A DNA stretch of 9,706 nt from a virus. Taxonomy: Duplodnaviria > Heunggongvirae > Uroviricota > Caudoviricetes. The notes beneath the pieces were generated by a model. It was given only the letters and a program-made list of their open reading frames with translations. It searched no databases and was not told the DNA's origin. Below, piece by piece: positions 1 through 9,706 of the stretch. Position 1 is the stretch's first letter; each line of letters starts with the position of its first letter. The DNA is taken from the IMG/VR virus record IMGVR_UViG_2703718673_000017. The stretch is one strand, 5' to 3'. A program made the translations under genes and the position numbers.

Positions 1-60
1 CGTCCCCACCGCTGACGTGGTGTATGACACACCCGTTGTGATTTTTTCCATCTGGTACAT
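1..60 (-). CDS. S: Holin, 5' portion only (class II S21/Stx-phage-like); gene continues past the window start
   Basis: Minus-strand ATG at 60..58 and a second in-frame ATG at 51..49 give MYQMEKITTGVSYTTSAVGT..., which I recall as matching the N-terminus of S21/933W-type pinholins with the Met1/Met4 dual start. SD GGGAGA (72..67) lies 6 nt upstream of the first ATG. Position downstream of nanS fits a lysis cassette. Truncated by the window edge. Confidence 0.7.
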   Translation of the reverse strand, partial: MYQMEKITTGVSYTTSAVGT

Positions 61-135
61 GCCCCGTCTCCCGCAATCCGGAAGCTCGCAACAACAGGAG
101 GGGCATCAGCTCACACCGACAGCCCCTGCGTATGG

Positions 136-405
136 TTACATCATCATTTCGCCGCCAGGCTGAGGCTCACTGCTACCGTCAGGCTGAGACACAACGCCAT
201 CTGAAACAGCACTGTCACCCGCGCCGTCTTCAGGCTCAGGAGCAGCCGGTCCCCCCAGCAGCTCATCCAGAATGGCATCCACTTCAGCATCAAGACGCGC
301 CTCAAGATTCTGGCGGAGTTGCTGTTTCAGTGCGCTTCTGACTTCTTCAGAGCGCAGGACGTCCTTCACTGCTTCAGCAGTGACCAGAGATTTTATTTCT
401 GACAT
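136..405 (-). CDS. Hypothetical protein, 89 aa, helical N-terminus and acidic Pro/Gly/Asp-rich low-complexity tail
   Basis: Internal ATG (405..403) of the track ORF 136..561. The N-terminal extension in the track overlaps the 60-aa gene in another frame and looks non-protein-like. Weak SD (GAGA). No family recognised. Confidence 0.45.
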   Translation of the reverse strand: MSEIKSLVTAEAVKDVLRSEEVRSALKQQLRQNLEARLDAEVDAILDELLGGPAAPEPEDGAGDSAVSDGVVSQPDGSSEPQPGGEMMM

Positions 406-442
406 GGGATTTTCTCGTTGAAAGGTGTTGTTAAGAAAGTTG

Positions 443-625
443 CTACGAAATGAGAGGCTCTTCGGGTTTTGTTCCGGCTGACTGGCTGGCGCTGATTTTT
501 TCCGCCGCCGCGGCATCAATCTTTTTGCGTATATAGTTCCGGATAACCTTATACCCGCCACTTACCAGATATAACGTGCACACCACCGTGCAGAAATACA
601 ATAAAATAAGCTGTACAAATCTCAT
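443..625 (-). CDS. Small membrane protein, 60 aa, one N-terminal TM helix and a basic C-terminal tail
   Basis: Track ORF. Strong SD GGGAGGG (636..630) 4 nt upstream of ATG 625..623. Hydrophobic segment FVQLILLYFCTVVCTLYLV. Lies between nanS and the holin. Confidence 0.55.
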   Translation of the reverse strand: MRFVQLILLYFCTVVCTLYLVSGGYKVIRNYIRKKIDAAAAEKISASQSAGTKPEEPLIS

Positions 626-719
626 TATCCCTCCCGGTTATTGATATGGTGTTGACATCGTTAATACCTGTTGGTTAAAAAAGTGTCCTGCATGTTTTGC
701 TTTGGATATAACGACATTT

Positions 720-767
720 GCCGCCGGTTCTGGCTCCTTGTTTTCCCTGCCCCGGCGGCCTTTTTTT
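720..767 (+). terminator. Plus-strand terminator-like hairpin with T7 run
   Basis: Perfect 8-bp GC-rich inverted repeat gccgccgg (720-727) / ccggcggc (752-759) with a 24-nt loop, followed by c + T7 (761-767). The T-run is on the plus strand only; on the minus strand it is preceded by A7. Sits just 3' of the nanS stop codon (773-775). Confidence 0.35.
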
Positions 768-772
768 CCTGC

Positions 773-2710
773 TTACGGGTTATTCACTTCCACTGTTATA
801 CTTTCAATCAGCACCGGATATGTCGCACCGCTAGTGATATCGGTCACGCGCAATTTGTCTGCCGTAAACGTGCCGACCGGTGACTGTGACAGCATGAACG
901 GCGTCCCGTCCTTACCATCAATGACCGGCGTCACCTCAATACTGTTGTTACCGGCAAAACGGAAGCCCAGCGTATGCCATTCGTTATCAAATGCGCCGAA
1001 TGACCCCAGCTTCGTGTTCTGACCAGCATTTCCCTTGTGGTACATCACATTAAGGTCTGTGGCATCGCTCTGTACGTAAAACGACGCCAGCAGGTTATGA
1101 CCGGCATTACCTTCCAGTGTGACGCCCTGAGGCAGTGAAGAAACCGGCCAGTACAGCGCCAGTGCGTACTGATTAGCTGTCAGTGTGCCATCAACTTTAA
1201 AACGACAACTGATAAGCCCGCCCTTCTCCAGCAGGTCTGCGCCATTACCGGCATCATGCTGCATAAACCACGAGGAACTTCCTGTCTGTTTGGTCCACCT
1301 CAGCGCCTTACCTCCTGCAGCACCTGCATCATCAACTACCAATGCACGCCCTCCTTCAGCTCCCCATCCCTGCGGATTCAGTAAACCACCTGACTCTGTT
1401 GCACGGTAATAAAGCAGCGTTGTCACTGATTTCCCGTCCGTTGACGGTGTTGATGGTGTGTCCGGTGACGGCTTCTCATCCGGCGGCATCACAACCTGTT
1501 CCCCACCCACCAGTTCAGCCGTCCGTCCTGCATGGAGAAGAATCGCTGAGGCAAGACGGTCAGAAATAATCCCCCTGCGTGCCCATGAGCTGAAATGGCT
1601 CGCACGGTCTGCTGACGTCCAGTTTGCCGACGTCCGGGAGGCCGCACCGTAATATCCTGATGCCGGAATATCCGGGTCTTCTTCCGGTTTGTTCGTCGGG
1701 ACATTTGCTCCGTTCTCATCGGTCATGAACGGCACAAAGTGAATATTCTTTTCCGTTTTGTTTTTGTAACTGCCGTACACCGTCTGGTAAGTGGATTCGC
1801 TCTTCTGCTTCCAGAAATAAGTTGTGTCTCCACATATCCAGGGAACACCGTCAGCAGAACCACCAGCGCACTGTCCCACCATATCTGCAAGGTCCGTACG
1901 ATATTGTTCCACTACTTCTGTAAAACGGGCTGTGTGATTTGCTGGCGTTCCGTCAAAGTCAAATTCCCCCTGCATCCACACCACGGCAAGCAGCACATTT
2001 TTCGGGTTCTTTGCCAGCGCGGCTTTTGTACGACCGATGAGATCCTTATACAGCGGCCTGCCCACACCCCAGCGGGTAGAACTCTCTGAGGCACCGGTCA
2101 CGTCACTGTATGTTCCATCTGCCCCGGTGGTGAAAGCTGAACCACCACGGCAGCACGGAACCAGAAGAATACCCGCATTCGCCGGTATAAACGGCAGCAG
2201 CTTTTTGGCAATATGCAGCCCCTGCCCCACGGTTCCGTACTGACCTTTCGACAGGTCAGCTTTCGGATGGTTAAGACGGCTCATGTCCTGTACATCATGC
2301 AGACAGTGGTCTGCCGGAATAATGTCGTTATATTTACAGGGAGCGCCATCCGGCGTCACTGTGCTGCGACGAGCCAGTTGCTTTATACGCGGGTCAGGAC
2401 GGTCATATGTCTGCGGCAGAGGAAGCCCCTCACCGTAAGCCATGCCGTTCGACTGCCCGGCCAGTGGAATAACGTAGTAATAATCTGGCTCCGTGGTGAC
2501 CACTCCCGGATAGCCACCATCCCCCGTGCCGGGCACAACCACTGGCGTGGTCACATCCCCCTCCGCGGCAATCGCCTGCATCAGGGTATAAGGGGTTATG
2601 GCCACAGGACTACCAAACGGCTGCCAGCCCTCTTTCAGTTTGTGTGTCAGCTTTTCCGCAAGATCTGACGGCGACGCCGCCCTGACAACATCATAATGTT
2701 TAATCGACAT
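773..2710 (-). CDS. nanS: Prophage-encoded sialate (9-O-acetyl-N-acetylneuraminic acid) O-acetylesterase NanS-p, 645 aa
   Basis: Track ORF with ATG start and SD GGGAGA 6 nt upstream. N-terminus MSIKHYDVVRAASPSDLAEKLTHKLKEGWQPFGSPVAITPYT is what I recall for EHEC/Stx-prophage NanS-p (DUF1737 N-domain). Followed by an SGNH/SASA-like esterase core, a Pro/Thr/Ser-rich linker (PPDEKPSPDTPSTPSTDGKS) and a C-terminal beta-rich domain. Sits between Q and the lysis genes, as in Stx-type prophages. Confidence 0.9.
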   Translation of the reverse strand: MSIKHYDVVRAASPSDLAEKLTHKLKEGWQPFGSPVAITPYTLMQAIAAEGDVTTPVVVPGTGDGGYPGVVTTEPDYYYVIPLAGQSNGMAYGEGLPLPQTYDRPDPRIKQLARRSTVTPDGAPCKYNDIIPADHCLHDVQDMSRLNHPKADLSKGQYGTVGQGLHIAKKLLPFIPANAGILLVPCCRGGSAFTTGADGTYSDVTGASESSTRWGVGRPLYKDLIGRTKAALAKNPKNVLLAVVWMQGEFDFDGTPANHTARFTEVVEQYRTDLADMVGQCAGGSADGVPWICGDTTYFWKQKSESTYQTVYGSYKNKTEKNIHFVPFMTDENGANVPTNKPEEDPDIPASGYYGAASRTSANWTSADRASHFSSWARRGIISDRLASAILLHAGRTAELVGGEQVVMPPDEKPSPDTPSTPSTDGKSVTTLLYYRATESGGLLNPQGWGAEGGRALVVDDAGAAGGKALRWTKQTGSSSWFMQHDAGNGADLLEKGGLISCRFKVDGTLTANQYALALYWPVSSLPQGVTLEGNAGHNLLASFYVQSDATDLNVMYHKGNAGQNTKLGSFGAFDNEWHTLGFRFAGNNSIEVTPVIDGKDGTPFMLSQSPVGTFTADKLRVTDITSGATYPVLIESITVEVNNP

Positions 2711-2796
2711 CGAATTTCTCCCGTGTACAGGAACAGAGTTAAAAAGCCGGAACCGGAATCAAATCACAGGATGACCATCTGCCAGTGGCTGGTCGT

Positions 2797-2823
2797 AAAA
2801 AAAAGGCCGCGCCATGCGCAGCC
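2797..2823 (-). terminator. Rho-independent terminator (minus strand) 87 nt upstream of nanS
   Basis: Minus-strand RNA forms an 8-bp stem (ggctgcgc / gcgcggcc, one mismatch) with a 3-nt loop, followed by U8 (plus A-run 2797-2804). Confidence 0.5.
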
Positions 2824-3024
2824 GGAAATAAAGGGATAACGATGATAGTTTGAGAAAAACAGAAATAACACTTTTGTGGCAAAGCATGGTGCCGGGTGCC
2901 TCCCGGTGAATTCAGTACCAGCACCTGAATCCGCGATTATCCCATATACCTGGTTGCTGATTGCCCCTCCGCACAGGGGGATTCGCCATGCAGTAGTATT
3001 TTTAATAAACAGTAAACAAAAAAA

Positions 3025-3422
3025 TCAAGCATTATGCAGGCTGTTTCTTTTTATCACCGGCCACAGCAATACCACAATGCCGCAGACCAGCCCCCCATCC
3101 GCCAGCACCGACATGATTCTNNNNNNNNNNNNNNNNNNNNNNNNNNNNNNNNNNNNNNNNNNNNNNNNNNNNNNNNNNNNNNNNNNNNNNNNNNNNNNNN
3201 NNNNNNNNNNNNNNNNNNNNNNNNNNNNNNNNNNNNNNNNNNNNNNNNNNNNNNNNNNNTAATTTCTGACGTAAACGCGGACAGCGCTGGCTGATTACGC
3301 AGTACCTGTTCGATCTTCGCTTTCTAGGAAGCCTCACATTCACCATCTGCACAGGCCACCAGGTATGCGGCGTTAATCACCGCCTGTGCCAGATCGCGTT
3401 TCTCAAACTTTCCTTTTTCCGG
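3025..3422 (-). pseudogene. Degraded cargo gene at the Q-proximal moron site: TerB-like fragment with in-frame amber, split by the N gap, plus a C-terminal hydrophobic fragment
   Basis: Minus frame 3422..3327 encodes PEKGKFEKRDLAQAVINAAYLVACADGECEAS, then in-frame TAG (3326..3324), then KAKIEQVLRNQPALSAFTSEI up to the gap. No ATG in this frame after the upstream TAA (3425..3423). The A..A.ADG...E.AKIE pattern resembles TerB-family domains. After the gap, 3120..3025 encodes ...IMSVLADGGLVCGIVVLLWPVIKRNSLHNA*. The frame relationship across the gap cannot be determined. Confidence 0.3.
3121..3259. other. Assembly gap (139 N)
   Basis: Run of n characters. Track ORFs spanning it (translated as X) are artefacts. 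Confidence 0.99.
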
Positions 3423-3525
3423 TTAACGTGACACACCAATAACTCTTGTCGAAAAAGCCAGCAAGCAGAAAGACCGGTATTCACAACCACCAGCGCGTTT
3501 ACTGTACTGGCGTGATTTCAGTCAT

Positions 3526-3548
3526 AAAAAAACCCGCCTGGCGACGGG
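3526..3548 (-). terminator. tR'-like rho-independent terminator downstream of the Q-dependent late promoter
   Basis: Minus-strand RNA acccgucgccaggcggguuuuuuu: 6-bp stem (one G.U), 4-nt loop, U7. Located about 65 nt downstream of the putative PR' start, consistent with a short 6S-like late transcript. Confidence 0.6.
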
Positions 3549-3596
3549 TGTAAAAAATCTTCTAACGTCAGGCATAAAACGCCCATCGTTAGGGCA

Positions 3597-3624
3597 AATT
3601 TACCACAGATTCGGGAAAAATCAA
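3597..3624 (-). promoter_or_regulatory. Putative late promoter PR' (and presumably the qut region) immediately downstream of Q
   Basis: Minus strand: -35 TTGATT (3624..3619), 16-nt spacer, extended -10 TGgTAAATT (3605..3597). Position right after the Q stop and before the tR'-like terminator matches lambdoid late-operon organisation. Confidence 0.45.
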
Positions 3625-3629
3625 CAAAG

Positions 3630-4451
3630 CTATCTGGTCACCTTTTTCAGTTGTTGTTCTGCCCATGCTTCTTCAATATCAAACTGCACCACCAGCGTAT
3701 CGTAAAAACGTTTAACTGTTTTTTTCCATGTATCAAGAGATATGGCATCGGTTACATTACATATGGCATTAAATGCCTCCGTTGAAGGTAATCTTTCATA
3801 GCCACGACCACCACAACGCTGGCAGTCTCTGATAACAGGCATACCACGTTTTACCGACTCTTCACGATGAATGGCAACACCGCGCCCACGAAAATCTTTA
3901 CAGGCGGTGGAAACCTCCCCCTTCCCTCCACACTCCGGACAGGCAACTTTTACCACCTCCCTGACTTTTTTCCATTCCTCCCAGTAAGACGGATACACGC
4001 CTTTTGTGCACTTTGCCCACACTGGCGGCTTACCATCCGGATACTGGATCTTGTTTGTAAAAACCTCGCTTTCAATAAATTTTTTTCCGTGACAACAGGG
4101 GCACTGTTTTTTGCTCGCCGCGCTACGGGCATAATCTTCAAACGCATACGAAGCCATAATACGCATCACTGCCGGTTTTATTTCTGCCGGGAGTTTTCTT
4201 AACGCCGCCACGCGATCACACCGACTGAGTGCATATTCTGTCAGCAATTCTGTTGCCCGCTCTCTGTCATTCATACTAATGCCCATTTTCCCAAGGAACG
4301 CAGAAAACCCCATCTCAGCCCAATTCTGTGTCATGCCCTGCGCGGCCATCACATCAGTGATACTCAGCGTATCTTTCGACGTTGAGGCCGATGCATCAGT
4401 CAGGCCGGGGGATTTTGGGGAGTAGTATTTCGGTAAATCTTCCAGTTTCAT
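3630..4451 (-). CDS. Q: Late-gene antitermination protein Q (Phage_antitermQ family, QuuQ/Q82-like), 273 aa
   Basis: Track ORF. ATG overlaps the rusA stop (ATGA at 4451..4448). Motifs YSPKSP, DVMAAQGM, FYDTLVVQ and Cys pairs (CPCCHGKK ... CPECGGKG ... CQRCGGRG) resemble Qin-type Q proteins as I recall them. Position immediately 3' of rusA and 5' of PR'/tR' is diagnostic. Confidence 0.8.
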   Translation of the reverse strand: MKLEDLPKYYSPKSPGLTDASASTSKDTLSITDVMAAQGMTQNWAEMGFSAFLGKMGISMNDRERATELLTEYALSRCDRVAALRKLPAEIKPAVMRIMASYAFEDYARSAASKKQCPCCHGKKFIESEVFTNKIQYPDGKPPVWAKCTKGVYPSYWEEWKKVREVVKVACPECGGKGEVSTACKDFRGRGVAIHREESVKRGMPVIRDCQRCGGRGYERLPSTEAFNAICNVTDAISLDTWKKTVKRFYDTLVVQFDIEEAWAEQQLKKVTR

Positions 4452-4822
4452 TTTTTGACCTGCCCTTCAAGCATTATGGGGTAAATCTTCACCCCCAGAC
4501 GTCCACCAGATACTGGCTGAGCACGAACGATATTGATTTCATCAAACTGCTCATCGTCCATTAGCAACCCCGCATGCGTCAGCGCATCCAGCGGCGCTTT
4601 CAGAATATTGTCCAGGTCACGGCGGCGCTTATCCGGTGGCTCGGCAATAATCTTTATCGCCAGCCTTCCGGACAGGCTTAATTTCAGCCGCTGCTGGCGA
4701 ACAATAAGCGCCACAGCCCGGCGATAACGCTCACCGGCTTTTGATACAAAATATGTGCTGCCACGACGTCGCCAGTAGGTGTTCACCGTCGGCGGGTAAG
4801 GTAAAACCAAATCTATGAGCAT
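4448..4822 (-). CDS. rusA: Holliday junction resolvase RusA, 124 aa
   Basis: LPYPPTVNTYW and PDKRRRDLDN match RusA signatures (E. coli RusA has LPWPPSNNRYY and PDRRRRDLDN). SD AGAGGTGA 4 nt upstream of ATG. Classic nin-region position just upstream of Q. Confidence 0.85.
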   Translation of the reverse strand: MLIDLVLPYPPTVNTYWRRRGSTYFVSKAGERYRRAVALIVRQQRLKLSLSGRLAIKIIAEPPDKRRRDLDNILKAPLDALTHAGLLMDDEQFDEINIVRAQPVSGGRLGVKIYPIMLEGQVKK

Positions 4823-4834
4823 CAGTCACCTCTT

Positions 4835-5884
4835 TTACCCGAGCACGCCAGTCGCAAAGGCGTGATCAAGAAAACGAAAAATTAACTCAATCTGAGAGCC
4901 GTACTTTTTCTCAAACTCCAGCGGGTCTGCATGAAGTTCGTTGTGGTGCTCCCGGCACAACGGTAGCGTGAAAATATCGTGGGCCTTTGTCCCCATTCCC
5001 CCCTGACCATGACCAATCAGGTGATGCGGATCGTCAGCAGGCTTACCACAACACGCACACGGCTGTGTCTTTACCCAGCGCGTGTATTTCTCATTAACCC
5101 AGCGGCAACGTTTAGGCCGCCTCATGAACGATTCAGGAGACTCCGGATCAACGGCGATACTGACAACCGTTTTTTTCTGTGGTGGATTTTGTTGCTGGTG
5201 GACGTGAAGTGGCAGCGCAATATTTTTTGTGCGCTGCTTCAGTATGCTGATGGCTGTCTGTTCTCCCGGTACGATGTCACTCTCACGGTATACGGAGCGG
5301 ATTTTTTCCGCTGGTAATCCCAGCGAACGACGCGCTACTGCCTCAGGTAGTGCATCCACCACCTGATTGCAGGCCGCCCACCAGGATAATTCAGCCAGCG
5401 ATAATTCACGCTCCTGTGTGCCATTCATTGCGTGACGAATGACGTCAATCATCCATGCTGACAGGTTTTGGTGAGCAAGTTGCTCAAGTGATTCGGAGGT
5501 CTGGTCACGCAACTGGTTGTCGCAGTGCCAGCACAACACCATTGCGCCGGTACCATAACGGTGAATGACGGTTTCACTGTGGTGATAATCGCCGTGTGGC
5601 CACTGGCAGGATTTAACATGGCGCAGTAACCAGTCAGACAGTGCGCCAGCGCCACCAGCAGCACGAATCACTCGTTCGTCGCTGAAAAATGGCAGTAATG
5701 ATTTATCCTCCGCCAGCGGCTGGCGAACGGCAGGAACGACCCCGGACGGCAGATTACGCATGCTTTTCGGTTCCGGCTCCACCAGTACCCGGGTATTGTG
5801 GAATACCGGCATGGATTCACGGCCCGGCTTAACGATCACCAGCCCGAGTTCCGGTACCAGAACAGGTCGAAGTAATACCCGCAC
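4835..5884 (-). CDS. DUF968-type nin-region protein with C-terminal HNH/zinc-finger-like motif (YdfU-like), 349 aa
   Basis: Track ORF. Start codon is GTG (5884..5882) with SD GGAGG (5893..5889) overlapping the stop of the upstream gene. C-terminus CACCGKPADDPHHLIGHGQGGMGTKAHDIFTLPLCREHHNELH looks like an HNH-type nuclease motif. Same relative position as ydfU in Qin. Confidence 0.6.
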   Translation of the reverse strand: MRVLLRPVLVPELGLVIVKPGRESMPVFHNTRVLVEPEPKSMRNLPSGVVPAVRQPLAEDKSLLPFFSDERVIRAAGGAGALSDWLLRHVKSCQWPHGDYHHSETVIHRYGTGAMVLCWHCDNQLRDQTSESLEQLAHQNLSAWMIDVIRHAMNGTQERELSLAELSWWAACNQVVDALPEAVARRSLGLPAEKIRSVYRESDIVPGEQTAISILKQRTKNIALPLHVHQQQNPPQKKTVVSIAVDPESPESFMRRPKRCRWVNEKYTRWVKTQPCACCGKPADDPHHLIGHGQGGMGTKAHDIFTLPLCREHHNELHADPLEFEKKYGSQIELIFRFLDHAFATGVLG

Positions 5885-5885
5885 G

Positions 5886-6164
5886 TTACCTCCAGATGCG
5901 TTGCTGGAATGTGCGGGACGGACGCGGTGGGCGTTCGGAGTAAGGAAGCCTGACGGAGATTATCCAGTGACGATAATCGAGACTGAGGGCTTTCTTAACC
6001 TCGTATCCGCGCCTGCGGTAACACTGAATCAGCCATTCAGCCTGTTCTTCGGTGCAGGGGTCGTGCTGATACCAGTCAGATTTGAATGCATGAGAACGCC
6101 GCCCGTGCCTGCTGGCAGGGGCGGCAGAGTTATCCGAATTGTAAAATTTGGTATCGTGCGCCAT
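5886..6164 (-). CDS. Hypothetical small protein (about 92 aa), possibly Rem-like by position
   Basis: Internal ATG 6164..6162 of track ORF 5886..6293. The longer N-terminal extension would translate through the hok mRNA terminator and fbi element, so it was rejected. Stop is tightly coupled to the start of the downstream DUF968 gene. Weak SD. Sits where rem lies in Qin (hokD-rem-ydfU); sequence identity to Rem is not verified. Confidence 0.5.
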   Translation of the reverse strand: MAHDTKFYNSDNSAAPASRHGRRSHAFKSDWYQHDPCTEEQAEWLIQCYRRRGYEVKKALSLDYRHWIISVRLPYSERPPRPSRTFQQRIWR

Positions 6165-6235
6165 CTGTTTTCTCTGCTGGCGCAGCAGGTGCCAGTTGTT
6201 CAGGCTGACGGATGGATTGTAAACCAGAACGACCA

Positions 6236-6261
6236 GAAAAAACAAAACCCGCCGAAGCGGG
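6236..6261 (-). terminator. Rho-independent terminator at the 3' end of the hok mRNA
   Basis: Minus-strand RNA aacccgcuucggcggguuuuguuuuuu: 5-bp GC stem with a UUCG-type tetraloop, then a U-rich run (plus A-run 6237-6247). Confidence 0.6.
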
Positions 6262-6331
6262 TTAAGTGCGGGTGCGTTGAGGATGCCTGACACATCAGCG
6301 GTGGCGAGGGATTTCTCCCCCGCCTGGTCTC

Positions 6332-6487
6332 TTACTCCTCAGGTTCGTAAGCTGTGAAGACAGCGACCTCCGTCTGGCCGGTTCGGATTCGTACCTCGCA
6401 GAGGTCTTTCCTCGTTACCAGTGCCGTCACTATGACGGTTAAACAGATGACGATCAGGGCGATTAACATCGCCTTTTGCTGCTTCAT
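6332..6487 (-). CDS. hok: Hok-family type I toxin (HokC/Gef, HokD/RelF-like), 51 aa
   Basis: MKQQKAMLIALIVICLTVIVTALVTRKDLCEVRIRTGQTEVAVFTAYEPEE matches the Hok/Gef family (compare Gef MKQHKAMIVALIVICITAVVAALVTRKDLCEVHIRTGQTEVAVFTAYESE). SD AAGGAG 8 nt upstream of ATG 6487..6485. Confidence 0.9.
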   Translation of the reverse strand: MKQQKAMLIALIVICLTVIVTALVTRKDLCEVRIRTGQTEVAVFTAYEPEE

Positions 6488-6544
6488 AACCTGCTTCTCC
6501 TTGCCTTTCGGCGCGTAAGAGGCTAACCTACGTTTGTGAAGCAT
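6332..6544 (-). CDS. mok: Mok-like in-frame N-terminally extended reading frame overlapping hok (70 aa)
   Basis: Track ORF with ATG 6544..6542, extending hok by 19 codons in the same frame, as in chromosomal mokC/hokC. GAGG lies 9 nt upstream. Confidence 0.6.
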   Translation of the reverse strand: MLHKRRLASYAPKGKEKQVMKQQKAMLIALIVICLTVIVTALVTRKDLCEVRIRTGQTEVAVFTAYEPEE

Positions 6545-6610
6545 AGATTGGGCCTCAGATTAATGTTAAGCGTCTTGCAGGACGCGTAATGTTAACTGGG
6601 GCTTTTCTCT
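6540..6610 (+). ncRNA. sok: Putative Sok-like antisense RNA (boundaries approximate)
   Basis: Plus strand, antisense to the mok translation-initiation region. Candidate promoters: TTGTGA (6534-6539) with ATTAAT (6559-6564), or TTGCCT (6501-6506) with TAACCT (6524-6529). A 7-bp closing stem (6552-6558 with 6596-6602) is followed by a T-rich run 6603-6610. Ends are inferred by analogy to R1 hok/sok and are not verified. Confidence 0.35.
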
Positions 6611-6662
6611 GTCTGCCTTACGGTGGCATGCCCGAGGCAGACAGCCTCAAGCACCCGCAGCA

Positions 6663-6690
6663 ATTCTACTTAACTCTCGCTTTACAGCAA
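6663..6690 (-). promoter_or_regulatory. Putative hok mRNA promoter
   Basis: Minus strand: -35 TTGCTG (6690..6685), 16-nt spacer, -10 TAGAAT (6668..6663). The predicted start near 6656 (GGGUGCUUGAGGC...) resembles the R1 hok mRNA 5' end (GGCGCUUGAGGC...) as I recall it. Confidence 0.45.
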
Positions 6691-6730
6691 ACCGTTTTGC
6701 CCGATATGGGAATTCCCATACGGAATGAAT

Positions 6731-6835
6731 TCAGTTCCCCAGGCGCTCCATCAAAAACACAACCAGGCAGTAAACACCCACAACAGCAATAACAGCCAGA
6801 GCGCCTTCCATTACCAGTGAAATATCATCCGACAT
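6731..6835 (-). CDS. Small hydrophobic peptide, 34 aa, single predicted TM helix (not in ORF track)
   Basis: ATG 6835..6833 preceded by SD GGGAGGG (6845..6839, 3-nt spacer). Translation MSDDISLVMEGALAVIAVVGVYCLVVFLMERLGN, stop TGA 6733..6731. Same strand as all other genes. Confidence 0.4.
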   Translation of the reverse strand: MSDDISLVMEGALAVIAVVGVYCLVVFLMERLGN

Positions 6836-6870
6836 ATTCCCTCCCTTGGTGTGAATCCCGGCGAACGTTT

Positions 6871-6948
6871 TTACCCCCACCGACAAATAACATATACTAG
6901 AAAAGCAATAGCTATAGCAACGCCTGCAAATGCATCTGGCCGGCTCAT
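6871..6948 (-). CDS. Small hydrophobic peptide, 25 aa, single predicted TM helix (not in ORF track)
   Basis: ATG 6948..6946 overlaps the stop of the 190-aa gene (ATGA). SD GGGGGAGAA (6960..6952). Translation MSRPDAFAGVAIAIAFLVYVICRWG, stop TAA 6873..6871. Confidence 0.4.
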   Translation of the reverse strand: MSRPDAFAGVAIAIAFLVYVICRWG

Positions 6949-7517
6949 TGGTTCTCCCCCTGTGTCGCTTCTACTGCGATCTGACTGGCGTATTCGTTAA
7001 TGGTAACGATAAGTTCTTGCTCGGCCTCATCCAGACAACTACCGATACCTCGCCTGTCCACTTCAGAAGCATCGAAATCTGCACGAAGCCTGGCGACCTT
7101 CAGGATTGCGGACAACACCTCATCAGGGATTGCCGGAGAGTTGGTTGACGTTTCCGAGATTATCCGAAAATTATTGGTTGACGAACCCTTATTTTCCCGA
7201 AAGTTTCCAGCCTGAAGCATGGCGGCGCGGTGACACCAGATAATCCAGCCAAGCGCCATATCCCATGCCATGTATTCTCTATCGCCATTTTTTGCTCTGC
7301 GGCGATCTACAGATTCCCCGAAACGCTTCTCCATAAATAATTCATAGGCTGCCCGTTCATCCGATACTGATGCCAGTGATGCCAGTGATGCCAGTGCAAT
7401 TTTTAATGCGGTAAGCATGTTGTTTTGATCTTCATCGAGTCCGAACGGTATTTCATCCCGTGATGACTCAATTCCGGTAATCGTGTTCTGTAGCCATTCT
7501 TTGGTTAATTCAGTCAT
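6945..7517 (-). CDS. Hypothetical protein, 190 aa, with internal ASL tandem repeat
   Basis: Track ORF with ATG start. No family recognised. Contains the 9-bp tandem repeat encoding ALASLASLASVS. Preceded by a 126-nt AT-rich intergenic region with an SD-hairpin-AUG arrangement. Confidence 0.7.
   Translation of the reverse strand: MTELTKEWLQNTITGIESSRDEIPFGLDEDQNNMLTALKIALASLASLASVSDERAAYELFMEKRFGESVDRRRAKNGDREYMAWDMALGWIIWCHRAAMLQAGNFRENKGSSTNNFRIISETSTNSPAIPDEVLSAILKVARLRADFDASEVDRRGIGSCLDEAEQELIVTINEYASQIAVEATQGENQ
7368..7394. repeat. Perfect 9-bp tandem repeat (tgatgccag x3) inside the 190-aa CDS
   Basis: Plus strand 7368-7376, 7377-7385 and 7386-7394 are identical 9-mers. In frame on the minus strand, encoding an (ASL)n tract. 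Confidence 0.85.
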
Positions 7518-7643
7518 TTTTCACTACCGCCCTTTCGGGCGGTCTCCTGATGTTCTGAGGGTGCAGGAATCCCTCCGGTTAAGGATTTAATAAAAATCAT
7601 TTCTGATTTAAATTTTCAGTGTTTAGTTGTTGGTTTATAGCCT

Positions 7644-7955
7644 TTATGCTTCGGCCTTATTTCTCAGCCATACACAAACAGGACCATCTTCGGTGTCATG
7701 TATCGAACCGATAAACCATCCCTCACCTTCTGGTCGCTCAGGTTCCCATGCTGAAATATCAGGGCCATCTGCGTCCAGATTAAAATCATCTTCATCCATA
7801 CTACGGATAGCCCACTGAAGATTATTTTTCTCCATCCAGGCGTTAAACTCTTCCGTTGAAATATATTCCCGACCATCACAGAATTTTTCATATTCAGGAT
7901 GCGTCCAGCAGCCATATTCATTACGTTCCACTGGCATTTCTTTAATTACGCTCAT
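7644..7955 (-). CDS. Hypothetical phage protein, 103 aa, acidic
   Basis: Track ORF. ATG 7955..7953 overlaps the stop of the upstream 62-aa gene (ATGA). G-rich SD (GGGGGG) 3 nt upstream. No confident family assignment. Confidence 0.65.
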   Translation of the reverse strand: MSVIKEMPVERNEYGCWTHPEYEKFCDGREYISTEEFNAWMEKNNLQWAIRSMDEDDFNLDADGPDISAWEPERPEGEGWFIGSIHDTEDGPVCVWLRNKAEA

Positions 7956-8140
7956 TTACCCCCCTTATTTAATTTTCTACGACACTTTTTACAATCATCT
8001 GGACTTTCGAATGTATCCGGCTCACGCTCATTGCCAAAATACATCCACCCACCGCAAATACTTGTTATTTCACCTTCAGCAAAATAATGATGTTTTTTCG
8101 CCATAAGTGGCCTTGCCCAGCCCGGATTCGTTTTACTCAC
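7952..8140 (-). CDS. Hypothetical small protein, 62 aa, possible Cys-rich zinc-binding motif (SICGGW ... DDCKKC)
   Basis: Track ORF. Start codon is GTG (8140..8138), supported by SD AAGGAGG with a 6-nt spacer; it overlaps the stop of the 118-aa gene (GTGA). Confidence 0.55.
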   Translation of the reverse strand: MSKTNPGWARPLMAKKHHYFAEGEITSICGGWMYFGNEREPDTFESPDDCKKCRRKLNKGGK

Positions 8141-8493
8141 TTGTTGCCTCCTTTGCGAAGCTCTGCGACTAACTCGTCACATATGTGCGTCAAAGAGCAA
8201 AGTTTGATTGCTGGATGTTCGCGCACCATCTCCACACCCTGCGCCCGCAATTCTGCCAGAAAAGCGTAGGGGTCAGTTTTTTCACTGTGGTACATGGCAT
8301 CATAGATAATCATTGCAGCGACACCTGCCTGTCCTGCATCTGTGACGGATATATGCTCAAGGGCTACGGCCATTGCGTGTTTCAACCTCTCATTTTCCAC
8401 CTCAAGCACCACACGATTAGCCTCCAGCTCTTCTATGCGTTTTTTTGCTGCTCCCAGCTCAACACGCAGCTCCTGATAGTTAATCTCGCTCAT
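8137..8493 (-). CDS. Hypothetical phage protein, 118 aa, N-terminal coiled-coil-like segment
   Basis: Track ORF. ATG 8493..8491 overlaps the stop of the 74-aa gene (ATGA). SD GGAGGAAGGAGA upstream. N-terminus has heptad-like charge pattern (ELRVELGAAKKRIEELEANRVVLEVENERLKHA). Confidence 0.7.
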   Translation of the reverse strand: MSEINYQELRVELGAAKKRIEELEANRVVLEVENERLKHAMAVALEHISVTDAGQAGVAAMIIYDAMYHSEKTDPYAFLAELRAQGVEMVREHPAIKLCSLTHICDELVAELRKGGNK

Positions 8494-8714
8494 TCTCCTT
8501 CCTCCCGCACTGCTGTTTTATATGCCCGAAGCACATGCGATGTTTTTCCTGACACAGTGCTTCTCAGAAAGAAAATTCCACTGGTGTTTATTACCAGATA
8601 CGGGTCAGCAAGACGCAGCATATCCAGTATGTGATTATGTTTTCTTGTTTCCAGCACCGTACTTGAAATAAGCATATGTGACACGGGGCCGAAATCATGA
8701 TATCTGATTTTCAT
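8490..8714 (-). CDS. Hypothetical small protein, 74 aa
   Basis: Track ORF. ATG 8714..8712 with moderate SD (AGGGTGA), 21 nt downstream of the stop of the 232-aa gene. First gene of a four-gene chain with overlapping stop/start codons. Confidence 0.6.
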   Translation of the reverse strand: MKIRYHDFGPVSHMLISSTVLETRKHNHILDMLRLADPYLVINTSGIFFLRSTVSGKTSHVLRAYKTAVREEGE

Positions 8715-8735
8715 ATCATCACCCTGCTGTAAAAA

Positions 8736-9434
8736 TTACCCGTTATCTCCTGTCGTTATTTTCTGTATGACATCACGATGCTTATTAATTTCCCGCAGCG
8801 CGGCGCATAAGCGCTCCCACTTCTGAACCTGACCTTTTGCCCGGCGCAGCTCGCGGTTAGCCACATGCAGCGATGGTAAAATCAGACCATCCGGATGCTT
8901 TCTGATGAACGACGACTGTGACTGCACTGTGACCGCCACACTTTCAGTTTTAATTTCTTCCTGTGTTTCCGCTTCCCGGACTGGTAACGCAACACCTGCC
9001 GGCTGAGGAAAGGCTTTACCATCGGTTTCCGTTACCGATGCAGCTTTCGGCTCTGCCGGTAAATTATCGCCCGGTATGCAGTAACGATATTTACCGTCCT
9101 GATTTACGCGAATCAGACGACCTTTGCTGACAGCCATCGCCAGTGATGAATTCGCCCGGCGGGAGGTAATCCCGAACATTAACGCCAGTTCGTCAGCCGA
9201 CTGAGGACCATGCTGTTCAATCGCGTTAATCAGCATCTCTGCAGTGGTTTTTGGGGCCGCTTCAGTTGCCTCACTCGTCAGCCACCACATCGACCCCTTG
9301 TTATCAGCTTCGCCACGACGCTTCAGCTTCCAGAGTTCGGTAACAGCATCGTCACGGCTGATTTCAAGACGGGCTGCAATCTCGTGCGACGAGGCTTTTT
9401 TCAGTGCTTTCAGTGCGTCAAAAACGGTTTCCAT
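8736..9434 (-). CDS. Hypothetical protein (about 232 aa) with two winged-helix/HTH-like segments
   Basis: Track ORF 8736..9500, with the internal ATG 9434..9432 preferred: it has SD GGGAGG and an 8-nt spacer and avoids overlap with the upstream gene. Segments [27 protein letters not shown] and [31 protein letters not shown] resemble winged-helix DNA-binding modules. Start at 9500 cannot be excluded. Confidence 0.65.
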
Positions 9435-9468
9435 TAAATTTTCCTCCCGGTAAAAATTACTTCTCAAC

Positions 9469-9706
9469 TCAGACAAAACCGGCCGCCTTCCGGCGCTCAT
9501 ATTCCTGTTTCAGCAATTCAATTGGCGTTGGCCCTGGCGGGCGTTTGGGTGCTGCCAGTTGTCGCCGGACTGGCGGAACACTGAGGCCATTACCAACATG
9601 CTTTGCCCATTTCGTCAGCTGCCTTTCCACAAGCCGTTTTAACTCCCCTTCGGTCATCTGGCGCTCAATCCCCTTTGAACGCATCTCGAGGCAAATGTGG
9701 TACAGC
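9469..9706 (-). CDS. Hypothetical protein, C-terminal portion; reading frame is open to the window edge
   Basis: Track ORF 9469..9684, but the frame stays open upstream through 9706 (LYHICLE precedes the Met) and no SD precedes ATG 9684. Probably the 3' end of a longer gene extending past the window. Confidence 0.45.

What the first reader, a model, noticed from the sequence alone, without database searches (positions are those of the whole stretch)
6236..6690. Apparently intact hok/mok/sok type I toxin-antitoxin locus inside the prophage nin-Q interval
The locus has a Hok-family toxin, an in-frame Mok-like extension, and a predicted roughly 415-nt mRNA whose 5' end (UGCGGGUGCUUGAGG, around 6643-6657) is nearly perfectly complementary to a 3' element (CCUCAACGCACCCGCA, 6267-6282) just before the terminator. 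That is the fold-back-inhibition arrangement of plasmid R1 hok mRNA. A Sok-like antisense RNA is predicted on the plus strand. Chromosomal hok loci in E. coli K-12 (including hokD in Qin) are reported to be degenerate, so an intact copy here may act as a prophage stabilisation or phage-exclusion function.
Basis: partly seen in the sequence, partly recalled or inferred. Interest (0 to 1): 0.55.

Follow-up and report, generated by a model that had tools for sequence, protein, structure and literature searches.

The report
Intact prophage hok/sok toxin-antitoxin locus
This is a complete copy of the well-known hok/mok/sok RNA-controlled toxin-antitoxin cassette, sitting in a lambda-like E. coli prophage; identical copies are already annotated as hokD in hundreds of sequenced genomes, so it is real but ordinary.

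Summary
Window 6236-6690 (minus strand) carries every sequence element of a hok/mok/sok type I toxin-antitoxin locus. These are a 51-aa Hok/Gef toxin identical to K-12 HokD, an in-frame mok ORF, a leader matching Rfam RF01794 (114.9 bits, threshold 59), a 5'/3' tac-fbi pairing (pair probability at least 0.95; 1 of 2000 shuffles as good; covarying across 41 loci), a tac-ucb refold after 3' trimming, an intrinsic terminator, and a plus-strand Sok gene. The Sok -10 hexamer is identical to the one whose mutation abolished sokW function in Sakai prophage 5. K-12 Qin hokD keeps only the part from the hok Shine-Dalgarno onward, with relBE in place of the leader, so "intact versus K-12" is correct.

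It is not new. The 521 bp are 100% identical in many O157:H7 and O26 genomes annotated hokD. 4739 of 5426 complete E. coli genomes have a match. O157 Sakai is reported to carry 14 Hok genes. Hok enrichment in prophages is published, and the roughly 92% identical hokW-sokW has been characterised experimentally.

The biological role of this copy (prophage stabilisation, phage exclusion or help with lysis) is untested.

The parts
6685..6690 (-). putative hok promoter -35 (TTGCTG)
   Evidence: Read from the sequence. It lies 16 nt upstream of TAGAAT. The corresponding hexamer in Sp5 hokW is TTGCGG. It falls below the threshold of the consensus scan.
6663..6668 (-). putative hok promoter -10 (TAGAAT)
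   Evidence: Identical in Sp5 hokW. It lies 6 nt upstream of G6656, the same spacing as TATGAT to GGCGCUUGAGG in the IncFII plasmid copy L004.
6236..6656 (-). predicted full-length hok mRNA (about 420 nt)
   Evidence: The 5' end is taken from Rfam model position 1. The 3' end is taken from the intrinsic terminator. Fold z-score is -7.9.
6645..6656 (-). tac (translational activator) element GGGUGCUUGAGG at the mRNA 5' end
   Evidence: Pairs with fbi in the full-length fold and with ucb in the 3'-trimmed fold. Invariant among 12 close loci.
6598..6604 (-). ucb (upstream complementary box) AAGCCCC
   Evidence: Pairs with tac in the fold of 6656-6284 and in the Rfam RF01794 consensus structure.
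6482..6656 (-). hok mRNA leader matched by Rfam RF01794 'sok'
   Evidence: 114.9 bits against a gathering score of 59, E = 3.2e-26, full model 1-157. The hit is on the hok-sense strand.
6553..6556 (-). mok Shine-Dalgarno GAGG
   Evidence: Lies 8 nt upstream of the mok AUG. Conserved in the 41-locus alignment. Base-paired in the full-length fold.
6332..6544 (-). mok reading frame (70 codons, in frame with hok)
   Evidence: ORF listing. An in-frame upstream Met is also present in most homologous loci.
6497..6500 (-). hok Shine-Dalgarno GGAG
   Evidence: Read from the sequence. The block AAGGAGAAG is nearly invariant in the alignment.
6332..6487 (-). hok toxin gene (51 aa, identical to K-12 HokD/RelF)
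   Evidence: Pfam PF01848, 81.6 bits. PHROG 251 'MokW-like host killing', 114.7 bits. Peptide identical to K-12 HokD. RefSeq annotates the identical locus as hokD, WP_000813254.1.
6346..6349 (-). TACG motif at Tyr47 (candidate TadA A-to-I editing site, Tyr to Cys)
   Evidence: The motif lies in a 9-nt loop of the minimum-free-energy structure. K-12 hokD mRNA is reported edited at the equivalent site (PMC5630033, PMC12214031).
6270..6282 (-). fbi (fold-back inhibition) element CCUCAACGCACCC
   Evidence: Pair probabilities 0.95-1.0 with tac. Shuffle test 1 of 2000. Found at stop+45 to +56 in 41 loci, with U-A/C-G and G-C/A-U covariation.
6236..6263 (-). intrinsic terminator of hok mRNA (stem 6263-6246, then U tract)
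   Evidence: Terminator scan: 7-bp stem, 5 G-C pairs, tail TTGTTTTTTC. Conserved in K-12 Qin hokD.
6501..6506 (+). putative sok promoter -35 (TTGCCT)
   Evidence: Reverse complement of AGGCAA, which is identical in Sp5 sokW and nearly invariant in the alignment. Spacer of 17 nt to the -10.
6524..6529 (+). putative sok promoter -10 (TAACCT)
   Evidence: Identical to the Sp5 sokW hexamer. Primer YO-421 of Takada et al. replaces exactly this sequence (TAGGTTA to CCGGCTC on the hok strand) to make the 'pro-less' construct, which loses antitoxin activity.
6536..6610 (+). predicted Sok antisense RNA (about 70-75 nt)
   Evidence: The start is inferred 7 nt after the -10. The RNA folds into a single-stranded tail of about 14 nt, a long hairpin and a U-rich end: -33.2 kcal/mol, z = -6.0. 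The tail is complementary to the mok AUG and Shine-Dalgarno. No expression data were available.

Best explanation
The locus is a complete hokD-type hok/mok/sok type I toxin-antitoxin cassette, carried as a moron in the replication-to-Q region of a lambdoid E. coli prophage.

Inferred mechanism, taken from the plasmid R1 paradigm and matched to the elements found here:
1. A weak promoter (TAGAAT) makes a stable hok mRNA of about 420 nt.
2. The 5' end of this mRNA (tac, 6656-6645) is locked to the 3' fbi element (6282-6270), so neither ribosomes nor Sok can engage it.
3. Slow 3' exonucleolytic trimming removes fbi.
4. The 5' end then refolds onto ucb (6604-6598), which exposes the mok translation-initiation region.
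5. The plus-strand promoter (TTGCCT-17-TAACCT) makes an unstable Sok RNA of about 70 nt. Its single-stranded 5' tail pairs with the mok Shine-Dalgarno and AUG, blocks mok translation and therefore coupled hok translation, and marks the duplex for RNase III.
6. When Sok synthesis stops, the pool of trimmed mRNA is translated and the 51-aa Hok peptide depolarises the inner membrane. Sok synthesis could stop on loss of the element, global transcription shut-off or prophage induction.

Shown here: presence, arrangement, conservation and predicted folding of every RNA and protein element. Inferred: transcription, 3' processing, Sok action, toxicity and the trigger.
For: - Rfam RF01794 hit at 6482-6656(-), 114.9 bits against 59.
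- Pfam HOK_GEF, 81.6 bits; PHROG 251 'MokW-like host killing'.
- The Hok peptide is identical to K-12 HokD.
- The full-length fold contains the tac-fbi helix, z = -7.9, with pair probabilities of at least 0.95 and a shuffle test of 1 in 2000.
- The 3'-trimmed RNA refolds with tac on ucb, exactly as in the Rfam consensus.
- tac-fbi lies at a constant distance from the stop codon in 41 loci from Escherichia, Photorhabdus, Pantoea, Erwinia, Kluyvera, Citrobacter and an IncFII plasmid. Compensatory changes occur: U-A 26, C-G 12, U-G 2 at pair 4, and G-C/A-U at pair 12. 91.7% of cells are paired, against 32-55% when partners are slid.
- The terminator is present.
- The predicted Sok folds into a tail plus terminator hairpin.
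- The sok -35 and -10 and the hok -10 are identical to Sp5 hokW-sokW. That locus was shown to be a working toxin/antitoxin pair, with the same -10 mutated in the loss-of-function construct (PMC8621323).
- The identical 521 bp is annotated hokD in many O157:H7 and O26 genomes.
Against: - No expression, processing or toxicity data exist for this copy.
- Both promoters fall below the threshold of the sigma-70 consensus scan (8/12 and 7/12 matches by eye; neither is listed). They are assigned by homology only.
- NCBIfam models for the R1-type Hok subfamily and the HokA equivalog score below their cut-offs: 48.5 against 73 and 40.2 against 89.
- Sequence-intact chromosomal hok loci (hokA of E. coli C, hokB of K-12, hokC of ECOR24) were reported not to give post-segregational killing or rifampicin-induced killing (summarised). 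Intact anatomy therefore does not guarantee activity.
- HokD-type toxins may need TadA editing of Tyr47 to Cys for full toxicity, and only 6% editing was reported for K-12 hokD.
Confidence: 0.9

Rival explanations
1. Role A, induction-coupled lysis helper. As reported for hokW-sokW of Sakai prophage 5, Sok disappears when the prophage is induced. Hok then accumulates in the inner membrane and accelerates or augments host lysis and phage release.
For: The closest experimentally studied homologue is about 92% identical over the locus, with the same sok promoter hexamers and the same hok -10. In that system sokW RNA is lost and HokW made in a RecA-dependent way after mitomycin C, and roughly half as many phages are released from the deletion mutant (PMC8621323). 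PHROGs files the family as a moron.
Against: It is a single study with a 2-fold effect. hokW sits at the far end of the Sp5 provirus, opposite in orientation to the neighbouring late-side gene. The present copy sits in the early-right region, co-oriented with its neighbours. The triggering route need not be the same. It is not known whether this prophage is inducible.
Confidence: 0.35
2. Role B, prophage addiction (post-segregational killing). This is the first reader's first suggestion: cells that lose or excise the prophage are killed, because stable hok mRNA outlives Sok.
For: This is the established function of plasmid hok/sok (background). Every element needed for differential-stability control is present. 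hok is four-fold enriched in prophages (bioRxiv 10.1101/2025.08.07.668861).
Against: Intact chromosomal hok loci tested earlier did not mediate post-segregational killing. O157-type genomes carry up to 10 related places and Sakai carries 14 Hok genes, so related Sok RNAs from other copies might cross-protect. Against that, the Sok target segment is the most divergent part among close copies. There are no data for this copy.
Confidence: 0.25
3. Role C, abortive infection or phage exclusion. This is the first reader's second suggestion: a superinfecting lytic phage shuts off host transcription, Sok decays, and Hok kills the cell before the phage completes its cycle.
For: R1 hok/sok on a high-copy plasmid reduced T4 plating efficiency and plaque size (Pecota and Wood 1996, as cited). 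Prophage morons often encode defence functions.
Against: The Hok peptide and its neighbours give no hit in PADLOC. hok is not enriched next to defence systems (section title). The published effect needed a high copy number.
Confidence: 0.15
4. Role D, functionally silent selfish passenger. The cassette is structurally intact but has no measurable phenotype at single copy, and it persists only by hitch-hiking and recombination among lambdoid prophages.
For: Earlier tests of intact chromosomal hok loci were negative. The cassette has sharp homology boundaries (about 6697 to 6268/6236) and sits in different places in different phages and in P1-like phage-plasmids. Editing at the Tyr-to-Cys site is low in K-12 hokD.
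Against: There is strong purifying conservation of tac, fbi, ucb, both Shine-Dalgarno sequences and the coding sequence: pairwise divergence 0-0.07, against 0.2-0.4 in loops and the Sok target. Compensatory changes also maintain tac-fbi. Both argue for continued selection on regulated expression. hokW-sokW does have a phenotype.
Confidence: 0.2

Closest known systems
hokD (relF) of E. coli, as annotated by RefSeq in O157:H7, O26 and other genomes (WP_000813254.1)
   Same: The 521 bp of 6200-6720 are 100% identical in many complete genomes, where the CDS is named 'type I toxin-antitoxin system toxin HokD'. The peptide is identical to K-12 HokD. The synteny matches Qin: hok, a small gene, YdfU/DUF968 (85% identical) and then Q.
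   Different: K-12 Qin hokD lacks the promoter, tac, ucb, mok start and sok, and has relB-relE fused about 15 nt upstream of the hok AUG. The window copy has all of these. The small gene downstream differs: the 92-aa PHROG 1212 protein has no similarity to Rem.
hokW-sokW of Sakai prophage 5 / VT2-Sakai (Takada et al. 2021, PMC8621323)
   Same: About 92% DNA identity from just upstream of the hok -35 to the end of fbi. tac, ucb, fbi, the hok -10 and the sok -35 and -10 are identical. Both have a 51-aa Hok.
   Different: The Hok C-terminus differs (…VFTAYEPEE here, …VFVDYESEK in HokW). There are 8 or so substitutions in the roughly 25-nt Sok-tail/mok initiation segment. Sp5 has no equivalent terminator hairpin straight after fbi. 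The position differs: the far end of the provirus in Sp5, the nin-equivalent region here.
hok/mok/sok (parB) of plasmid R1 and IncF relatives
   Same: The architecture and folding logic are the same: tac-fbi lock, tac-ucb refold, mok-coupled translation and a cis-antisense Sok with a single-stranded 5' tail. The Sok promoter layout is alignable: TTGCGC-17-TATCCT in the IncFII copy, TTGCCT-17-TAACCT here.
   Different: The DNA is too diverged for blastn (one search returns no IncF hok). The Hok peptides are about 40-45% identical (HokW against R1 Hok is given as 44%). The NCBIfam R1-type Hok model scores below its cut-off. The carrier is a prophage, not a conjugative plasmid.

Membership tests
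hok/mok/sok type I toxin-antitoxin family | Small (about 50 aa) Hok/Gef membrane toxin ORF | tested here: met
   Pfam PF01848, 81.6 bits against a cut-off of 22. PHROG 251, 114.7 bits.
hok/mok/sok type I toxin-antitoxin family | Structured hok mRNA leader (covariance model) | tested here: met
   Rfam RF01794, 114.9 bits against a gathering score of 59, full length, on the hok-sense strand.
hok/mok/sok type I toxin-antitoxin family | Upstream overlapping mok reading frame with its own Shine-Dalgarno sequence | tested here: met
   ATG at 6544, GAGG at 6556-6553, 70 codons running through hok. Translational coupling itself cannot be tested here.
hok/mok/sok type I toxin-antitoxin family | Long-range 5'-3' pairing (tac-fbi) that locks the full-length mRNA | tested here: met
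   Minimum-free-energy fold, pair probabilities of at least 0.95, shuffle test 1 of 2000, and covariation in 41 loci.
hok/mok/sok type I toxin-antitoxin family | Alternative tac-ucb pairing once the 3' end is removed | tested here: met
   The fold of 6656-6284 pairs GGG.UGCU with AGCCCC, z = -6.0. The same helix appears in the Rfam consensus. This is an in-silico result only.
hok/mok/sok type I toxin-antitoxin family | Cis-encoded antisense Sok gene (promoter, tail complementary to the mok initiation region, terminator hairpin) | tested here: met
   TTGCCT-17-TAACCT on the plus strand, identical to the hexamers of functional sokW. The predicted RNA has a tail, a hairpin and a U-rich end.
hok/mok/sok type I toxin-antitoxin family | Sok RNA actually transcribed and unstable; hok mRNA stable and trimmed at the 3' end | not testable with these tools
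   Needs Northern blots, dRNA-seq or a rifampicin chase.
hok/mok/sok type I toxin-antitoxin family | Hok toxic, and toxicity neutralised by Sok | not testable with these tools
   The peptide is identical to K-12 HokD/RelF. Toxicity of RelF and of HokW is reported in the literature but was not tested for this locus.
hok/mok/sok type I toxin-antitoxin family | Intrinsic terminator downstream of fbi | tested here: met
   Stem 6263-6246 plus a T tract.
R1-type Hok subfamily (NCBIfam NF007279) and HokA equivalog (NF007290) | Score at or above the curated cut-off | tested here: not met
   48.5 against 73 bits and 40.2 against 89 bits. The toxin belongs to the HokD/HokC-like branch, not to these subfamilies.
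HokD (RelF) orthologue group | Peptide identity with E. coli K-12 HokD and the RefSeq hokD name on the identical locus | tested here: met
   51 of 51 residues identical. RefSeq annotation as hokD.
TadA A-to-I edited hok mRNAs | Tyr codon TAC within a TACG motif, in a loop, at the position aligned with Cys46 of HokB | tested here: met
   TACG at 6349-6346 (Tyr47), unpaired in a 9-nt loop of the minimum-free-energy structure. Editing itself cannot be tested here; it is reported at 6% for K-12 hokD.

The most novel reading that the evidence does not exclude
Among closely related hokD-type cassettes, the stretch that diverges fastest is the roughly 25-nt Sok-tail/mok initiation segment (window 6527-6551). 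Pairwise divergence there is 0.35-0.40, against 0.05 in the hok coding sequence and 0 in tac. The most novel reading not excluded is that prophage hok/sok cassettes are under diversifying selection for mutually orthogonal Sok-target pairs. Each of the many co-resident lambdoid prophages of an O157-type genome would then keep a private, non-cross-protected addiction or induction switch. A further possibility is that placement in the early-right operon lets read-through transcription act as the trigger. Neither idea was tested beyond the divergence profile, and the Sp5 copy has a different position and orientation.
Probability: 0.15. Interest if true: 0.4.

Novelty: already known. Interest (0 to 1): 0.12.

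Why it matters
It matters little as a discovery. The locus is a textbook system, already annotated in reference genomes and catalogued in surveys: 14 Hok genes in O157 Sakai, and hok enriched four-fold in prophages. Its value is as a clean, complete example of what the truncated K-12 Qin hokD looked like before relBE replaced its leader. It is also a candidate for settling what prophage-borne hok/sok modules do (stabilisation, exclusion or help with lysis), which the literature still describes as open.

Tried and rejected
1. Degenerate or pseudogene locus: rejected. Every element aligns with the functional hokW-sokW, and no frameshift, IS insertion or promoter-hexamer change is present.
2. The 5'/3' complementarity arising by chance: rejected by the shuffle test, the pair probabilities and covariation.
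3. The 135-aa GTG ORF 5886-6293 that overlaps fbi and the terminator: rejected as a gene. RefSeq starts the downstream gene at the ATG equivalent to 6164, and the PHROG 1212 match covers only residues 27-92 of the shorter product.
4. The sigma-70-like site 6569-6540 reported by the scan inside the leader: not pursued. Two sites were found in the region against 0.7 +/- 0.9 expected by chance.
5. blastn against plasmids to recover R1 hok directly: it failed because the DNA is too diverged, and returned mostly large (about 70-125 kb) non-mobilizable plasmids carrying hokD. An IncFII copy was obtained by tblastn with the R1 Hok peptide instead.
6. Exact source of the window: not found. The best complete-genome match covers 82% at 95.6% identity, so the window is a mosaic not present end to end in that collection.
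7. PR read-through as the trigger for Sok loss: considered, but not supported by the Sp5 arrangement, where hokW lies elsewhere and in a different orientation relative to neighbouring transcription.
8. The large protein-database, structure-prediction and fold-search tools were not used, because the identity was already unambiguous.
Full report
**What is there**

On the minus strand between 6690 and 6236 the window carries a compact cassette. In transcript order it contains:
- a weak promoter, TTGCTG (6690-6685), then 16 nt, then TAGAAT (6668-6663);
- a predicted start at G6656;
- a structured leader of about 170 nt;
- a Shine-Dalgarno sequence GAGG (6556-6553) and an ATG at 6544, opening a 70-codon frame (mok);
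- a second Shine-Dalgarno sequence GGAG (6500-6497) and an ATG at 6487, opening the 51-codon hok frame, which is in phase with mok and shares the stop codon that ends at 6332;
- a 3' UTR of about 95 nt ending in a hairpin (6263-6246) and a U tract.

**Family identification**

- Pfam assigns the ORF to HOK_GEF: 81.6 bits against a cut-off of 22.
- PHROGs assigns it to family 251, "MokW-like host killing", category moron.
- Rfam's only match in this region is RF01794 "sok": 114.9 bits against a gathering score of 59, full model, at 6656-6482.
- That hit is on the hok-sense strand and ends at the hok AUG. The Rfam model called "sok" therefore describes the hok mRNA leader. It supports the leader structure rather than Sok expression.

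**The 5'/3' complementarity**

The 5' coordinates are 2 nt off: the string lies at 6659-6645.
- The first three bases of that string probably precede the transcription start. This follows from the 6-nt spacing after TAGAAT, from position 1 of the Rfam model, and from the same spacing in an IncFII plasmid copy.
- GGGUGCUUGAGG (tac, 6656-6645) pairs with CCUCAACGCACCC (fbi, 6282-6270) with one bulged C.
- The helix is in the minimum-free-energy structure: -180.5 kcal/mol, z = -7.9.
- Each of its 12 pairs has probability 0.95-1.00 in the ensemble.
- Against 2000 dinucleotide shuffles of the real 3' UTR, only one reaches the observed duplex energy.

**Folding pathway**

When fbi and the terminator are removed (6656-6284), the predicted structure changes as the R1 model requires. 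The 5' end now pairs with AAGCCCC (ucb, 6604-6598), which reproduces the outer helix of the Rfam consensus. In the full-length fold the mok Shine-Dalgarno sequence and AUG are base-paired.

**Comparative support**

A scan of one genome per species returned 59 loci.
- In 41 non-identical loci, tac and a complementary element lie at a constant position, 45-56 nt after the stop codon. These loci come from Escherichia, Shigella, Photorhabdus, Pantoea, Erwinia, Kluyvera, Citrobacter, Pseudocitrobacter, an IncFII plasmid, Sp5 and the window itself.
- Pair 4 is U-A in 26 loci, C-G in 12 and U-G in 2. Pair 12 alternates between G-C and A-U.
- On the full-length alignment 91.7% of cells are paired, against 32-55% when the 3' partners are slid by 1-3 columns. 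Sixteen cells have changes on both sides, against 6.4 +/- 1.9 in column shuffles.
- Caveats: the 41 loci were kept because they had such a duplex, and 5 loci with a tac motif lacked one within range. The second half-helix is under-counted, because the bulge shifts the register in Photorhabdus.

**Sok**

- On the plus strand, TTGCCT (6501-6506), a 17-nt spacer and TAACCT (6524-6529) align with TTGCGC-17-TATCCT of the IncFII copy. They are identical to the hexamers of Sp5 sokW.
- Takada et al. made their promoter-less sokW by replacing exactly this sequence. Primer YO-421 carries CCGGCTC where the wild type has TAGGTTA. The construct lost antitoxin activity, and sokW supplied in trans partly restored growth.
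- An RNA starting at about G6536 would have a single-stranded tail of about 14 nt complementary to the mok AUG region. It would continue into a long hairpin and a U-rich end near 6606-6610: -33.2 kcal/mol, z = -6.0.
- Neither promoter reaches the threshold of the generic sigma-70 scan, so both rest on homology.

**"Intact" compared with K-12**

K-12 Qin hokD aligns with the window only from about 15 nt upstream of the hok AUG through fbi and the terminator. Upstream of that point it has relE and relB. The same relBE-hokD arrangement, without a tac motif, recurs in other genomes (L015 and L017). The window is syntenic with Qin downstream: YdfU/DUF968 is 85% identical, followed by RusA and Q. 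The small gene next to hok is unrelated to rem.

**Why it is not new**

- The 521-bp query is 100% identical in many complete O157:H7, O26 and other genomes, where the CDS is annotated hokD. 343 records are at least 99% identical. 4739 of 5426 genomes have a match, with a median of 2 and up to 10 places per genome.
- Related copies occur in 79 phage records (Stx phages, mEp460-like phages and others, annotated MokW, HokD or gef) and in plasmids, mostly large and non-mobilizable.
- Fozo et al. counted 14 Hok/Gef genes in O157 Sakai.
- A 2026 preprint reports hok in 3852 prophages and 2501 phages, with four-fold enrichment in prophages.
- hokW-sokW of Sp5, about 92% identical, is experimentally a type I toxin-antitoxin pair.

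**Function**

The regulatory mechanism is inferred with high confidence from anatomy and homology. The biological role is open.
- The only data on a close prophage homologue show RecA-dependent loss of sokW RNA, HokW production and roughly half the phage release from the deletion mutant after mitomycin C.
- Plasmid hok/sok mediates post-segregational killing, and at high copy number it gives partial exclusion of T4. Intact chromosomal hok loci did not show post-segregational killing.
- PADLOC has no model that matches Hok or its neighbours.
- I rank the roles as follows: help with lysis on induction (0.35), prophage addiction (0.25), silent passenger (0.20), abortive infection (0.15).
Tyr47 is encoded by TAC inside a TACG motif in a predicted loop (6349-6346). 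This is the site at which K-12 hokD mRNA is edited by TadA to a Cys codon, at 6%. Two homologues have the Cys hard-coded.

**Context**

All neighbouring genes are on the same strand and belong to phage families. Apart from a weak 5-bp candidate at the far end (9494-9478), the hok terminator is the only minus-strand terminator-like site found between 9184 and 4723. The window as a whole has no end-to-end match among complete E. coli genomes: the best covers 82% at 95.6% identity. This fits the mosaic nature of lambdoid prophages. Homology with Sp5 begins at about 6697 and ends just after fbi at about 6268. This delimits a portable cassette that sits at a different place in Sp5.

**Verdict**

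The finding is already known. Interest is low.

Noticed in passing
window 6527-6551: Among 12 closely related hokD-type cassettes, the most variable stretch is the Sok 5'-tail / mok initiation segment. Mean pairwise divergence is 0.35-0.40, against 0.05 in the hok CDS, 0.03 in fbi and 0 in tac. This could reflect selection for non-cross-reacting Sok-target pairs among co-resident prophages. No formal rate test was done.
   Followed up: partly
window 6346-6349 (minus strand): Tyr47 of Hok is encoded by TAC within a TACG motif in a predicted 9-nt loop. This is the TadA A-to-I editing context reported for K-12 hokC, hokD and hokE, which recodes Tyr to Cys. Homologues L048 and L060 have Cys hard-coded at this position.
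   Followed up: partly
window 6482-6656: The Rfam family RF01794, named 'sok antitoxin', matches the hok-sense strand and ends at the hok AUG. It models the hok mRNA leader, not the Sok RNA itself.
   Followed up: yes
window 6731-6835 (minus strand): A 34-aa strongly hydrophobic ORF (MSDDISLVMEGALAVIAVVGVYCLVVFLMERLGN) lies immediately upstream of the hok promoter. RefSeq annotates it as hypothetical (WP_001278460.1). It has no match in Pfam, PHROGs, NCBIfam or PADLOC.
   Followed up: partly
window 6705-6720: A perfect 16-bp palindrome, TATGGGAATTCCCATA, lies between the small ORF and the hok -35. It is outside the region shared with Sp5 hokW. Its function is unknown.
   Followed up: no
window 2851-3017 (minus strand): Rfam STnc100 sRNA hit, 94 bits against a gathering score of 47, between the Q gene and the SASA/NanS-p-like esterase gene. 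A 2026 preprint relates STnc100 to the prophage sRNA PasD.
   Followed up: partly
window 3121-3259: A run of 139 N (masked or unknown bases) lies downstream of the Q gene. ARAGORN finds no tRNA in the window. A related O157 prophage carries Ile, Arg and Arg tRNA genes after its Q gene.
   Followed up: partly
window 1-9706: The window has no end-to-end match in 5426 complete E. coli genomes (best 82% coverage at 95.6% identity, in 4 pieces), although the hok cassette itself is 100% identical in many of them. The Q ORF in the window runs 3630-4451 (273 aa), whereas locus L001, which has an identical cassette, annotates a 229-aa Q protein. The prophage appears to be mosaic.
   Followed up: partly
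window 5886-6293 (minus strand): The mechanical ORF list gives a 135-aa GTG ORF that overlaps fbi and the hok terminator. The annotated gene in an identical locus starts at the ATG equivalent to 6164 (92 aa, PHROG 1212, unknown function), so the longer ORF is spurious.
   Followed up: yes
L013, L010, L040; phage record PP818812.1 (hit H29): Near-identical hokD-type loci occur on contigs labelled Xanthomonas pisi (431 nt), a Veillonella parvula MAG (22.9 kb) and Acinetobacter idrijaensis (275 nt), and in an 'Actinobacillus phage' record. These are most likely contamination with Enterobacteriaceae DNA or mis-binning.
   Followed up: no
L003 (VT2-Sakai / Sp5) 3155-3367: In Sp5 the hokW cassette lies near the far end of the provirus, next to a very large oppositely oriented ORF, not in the nin region. 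It has no terminator hairpin directly after fbi. The cassette is therefore a portable moron with variable insertion sites.
   Followed up: partly
L015, L017 (and K-12 L002 5120-5873): The truncated relB-relE-hokD fusion of K-12 Qin, which has no tac, mok start or sok, recurs in other E. coli and Shigella genomes.
   Followed up: partly
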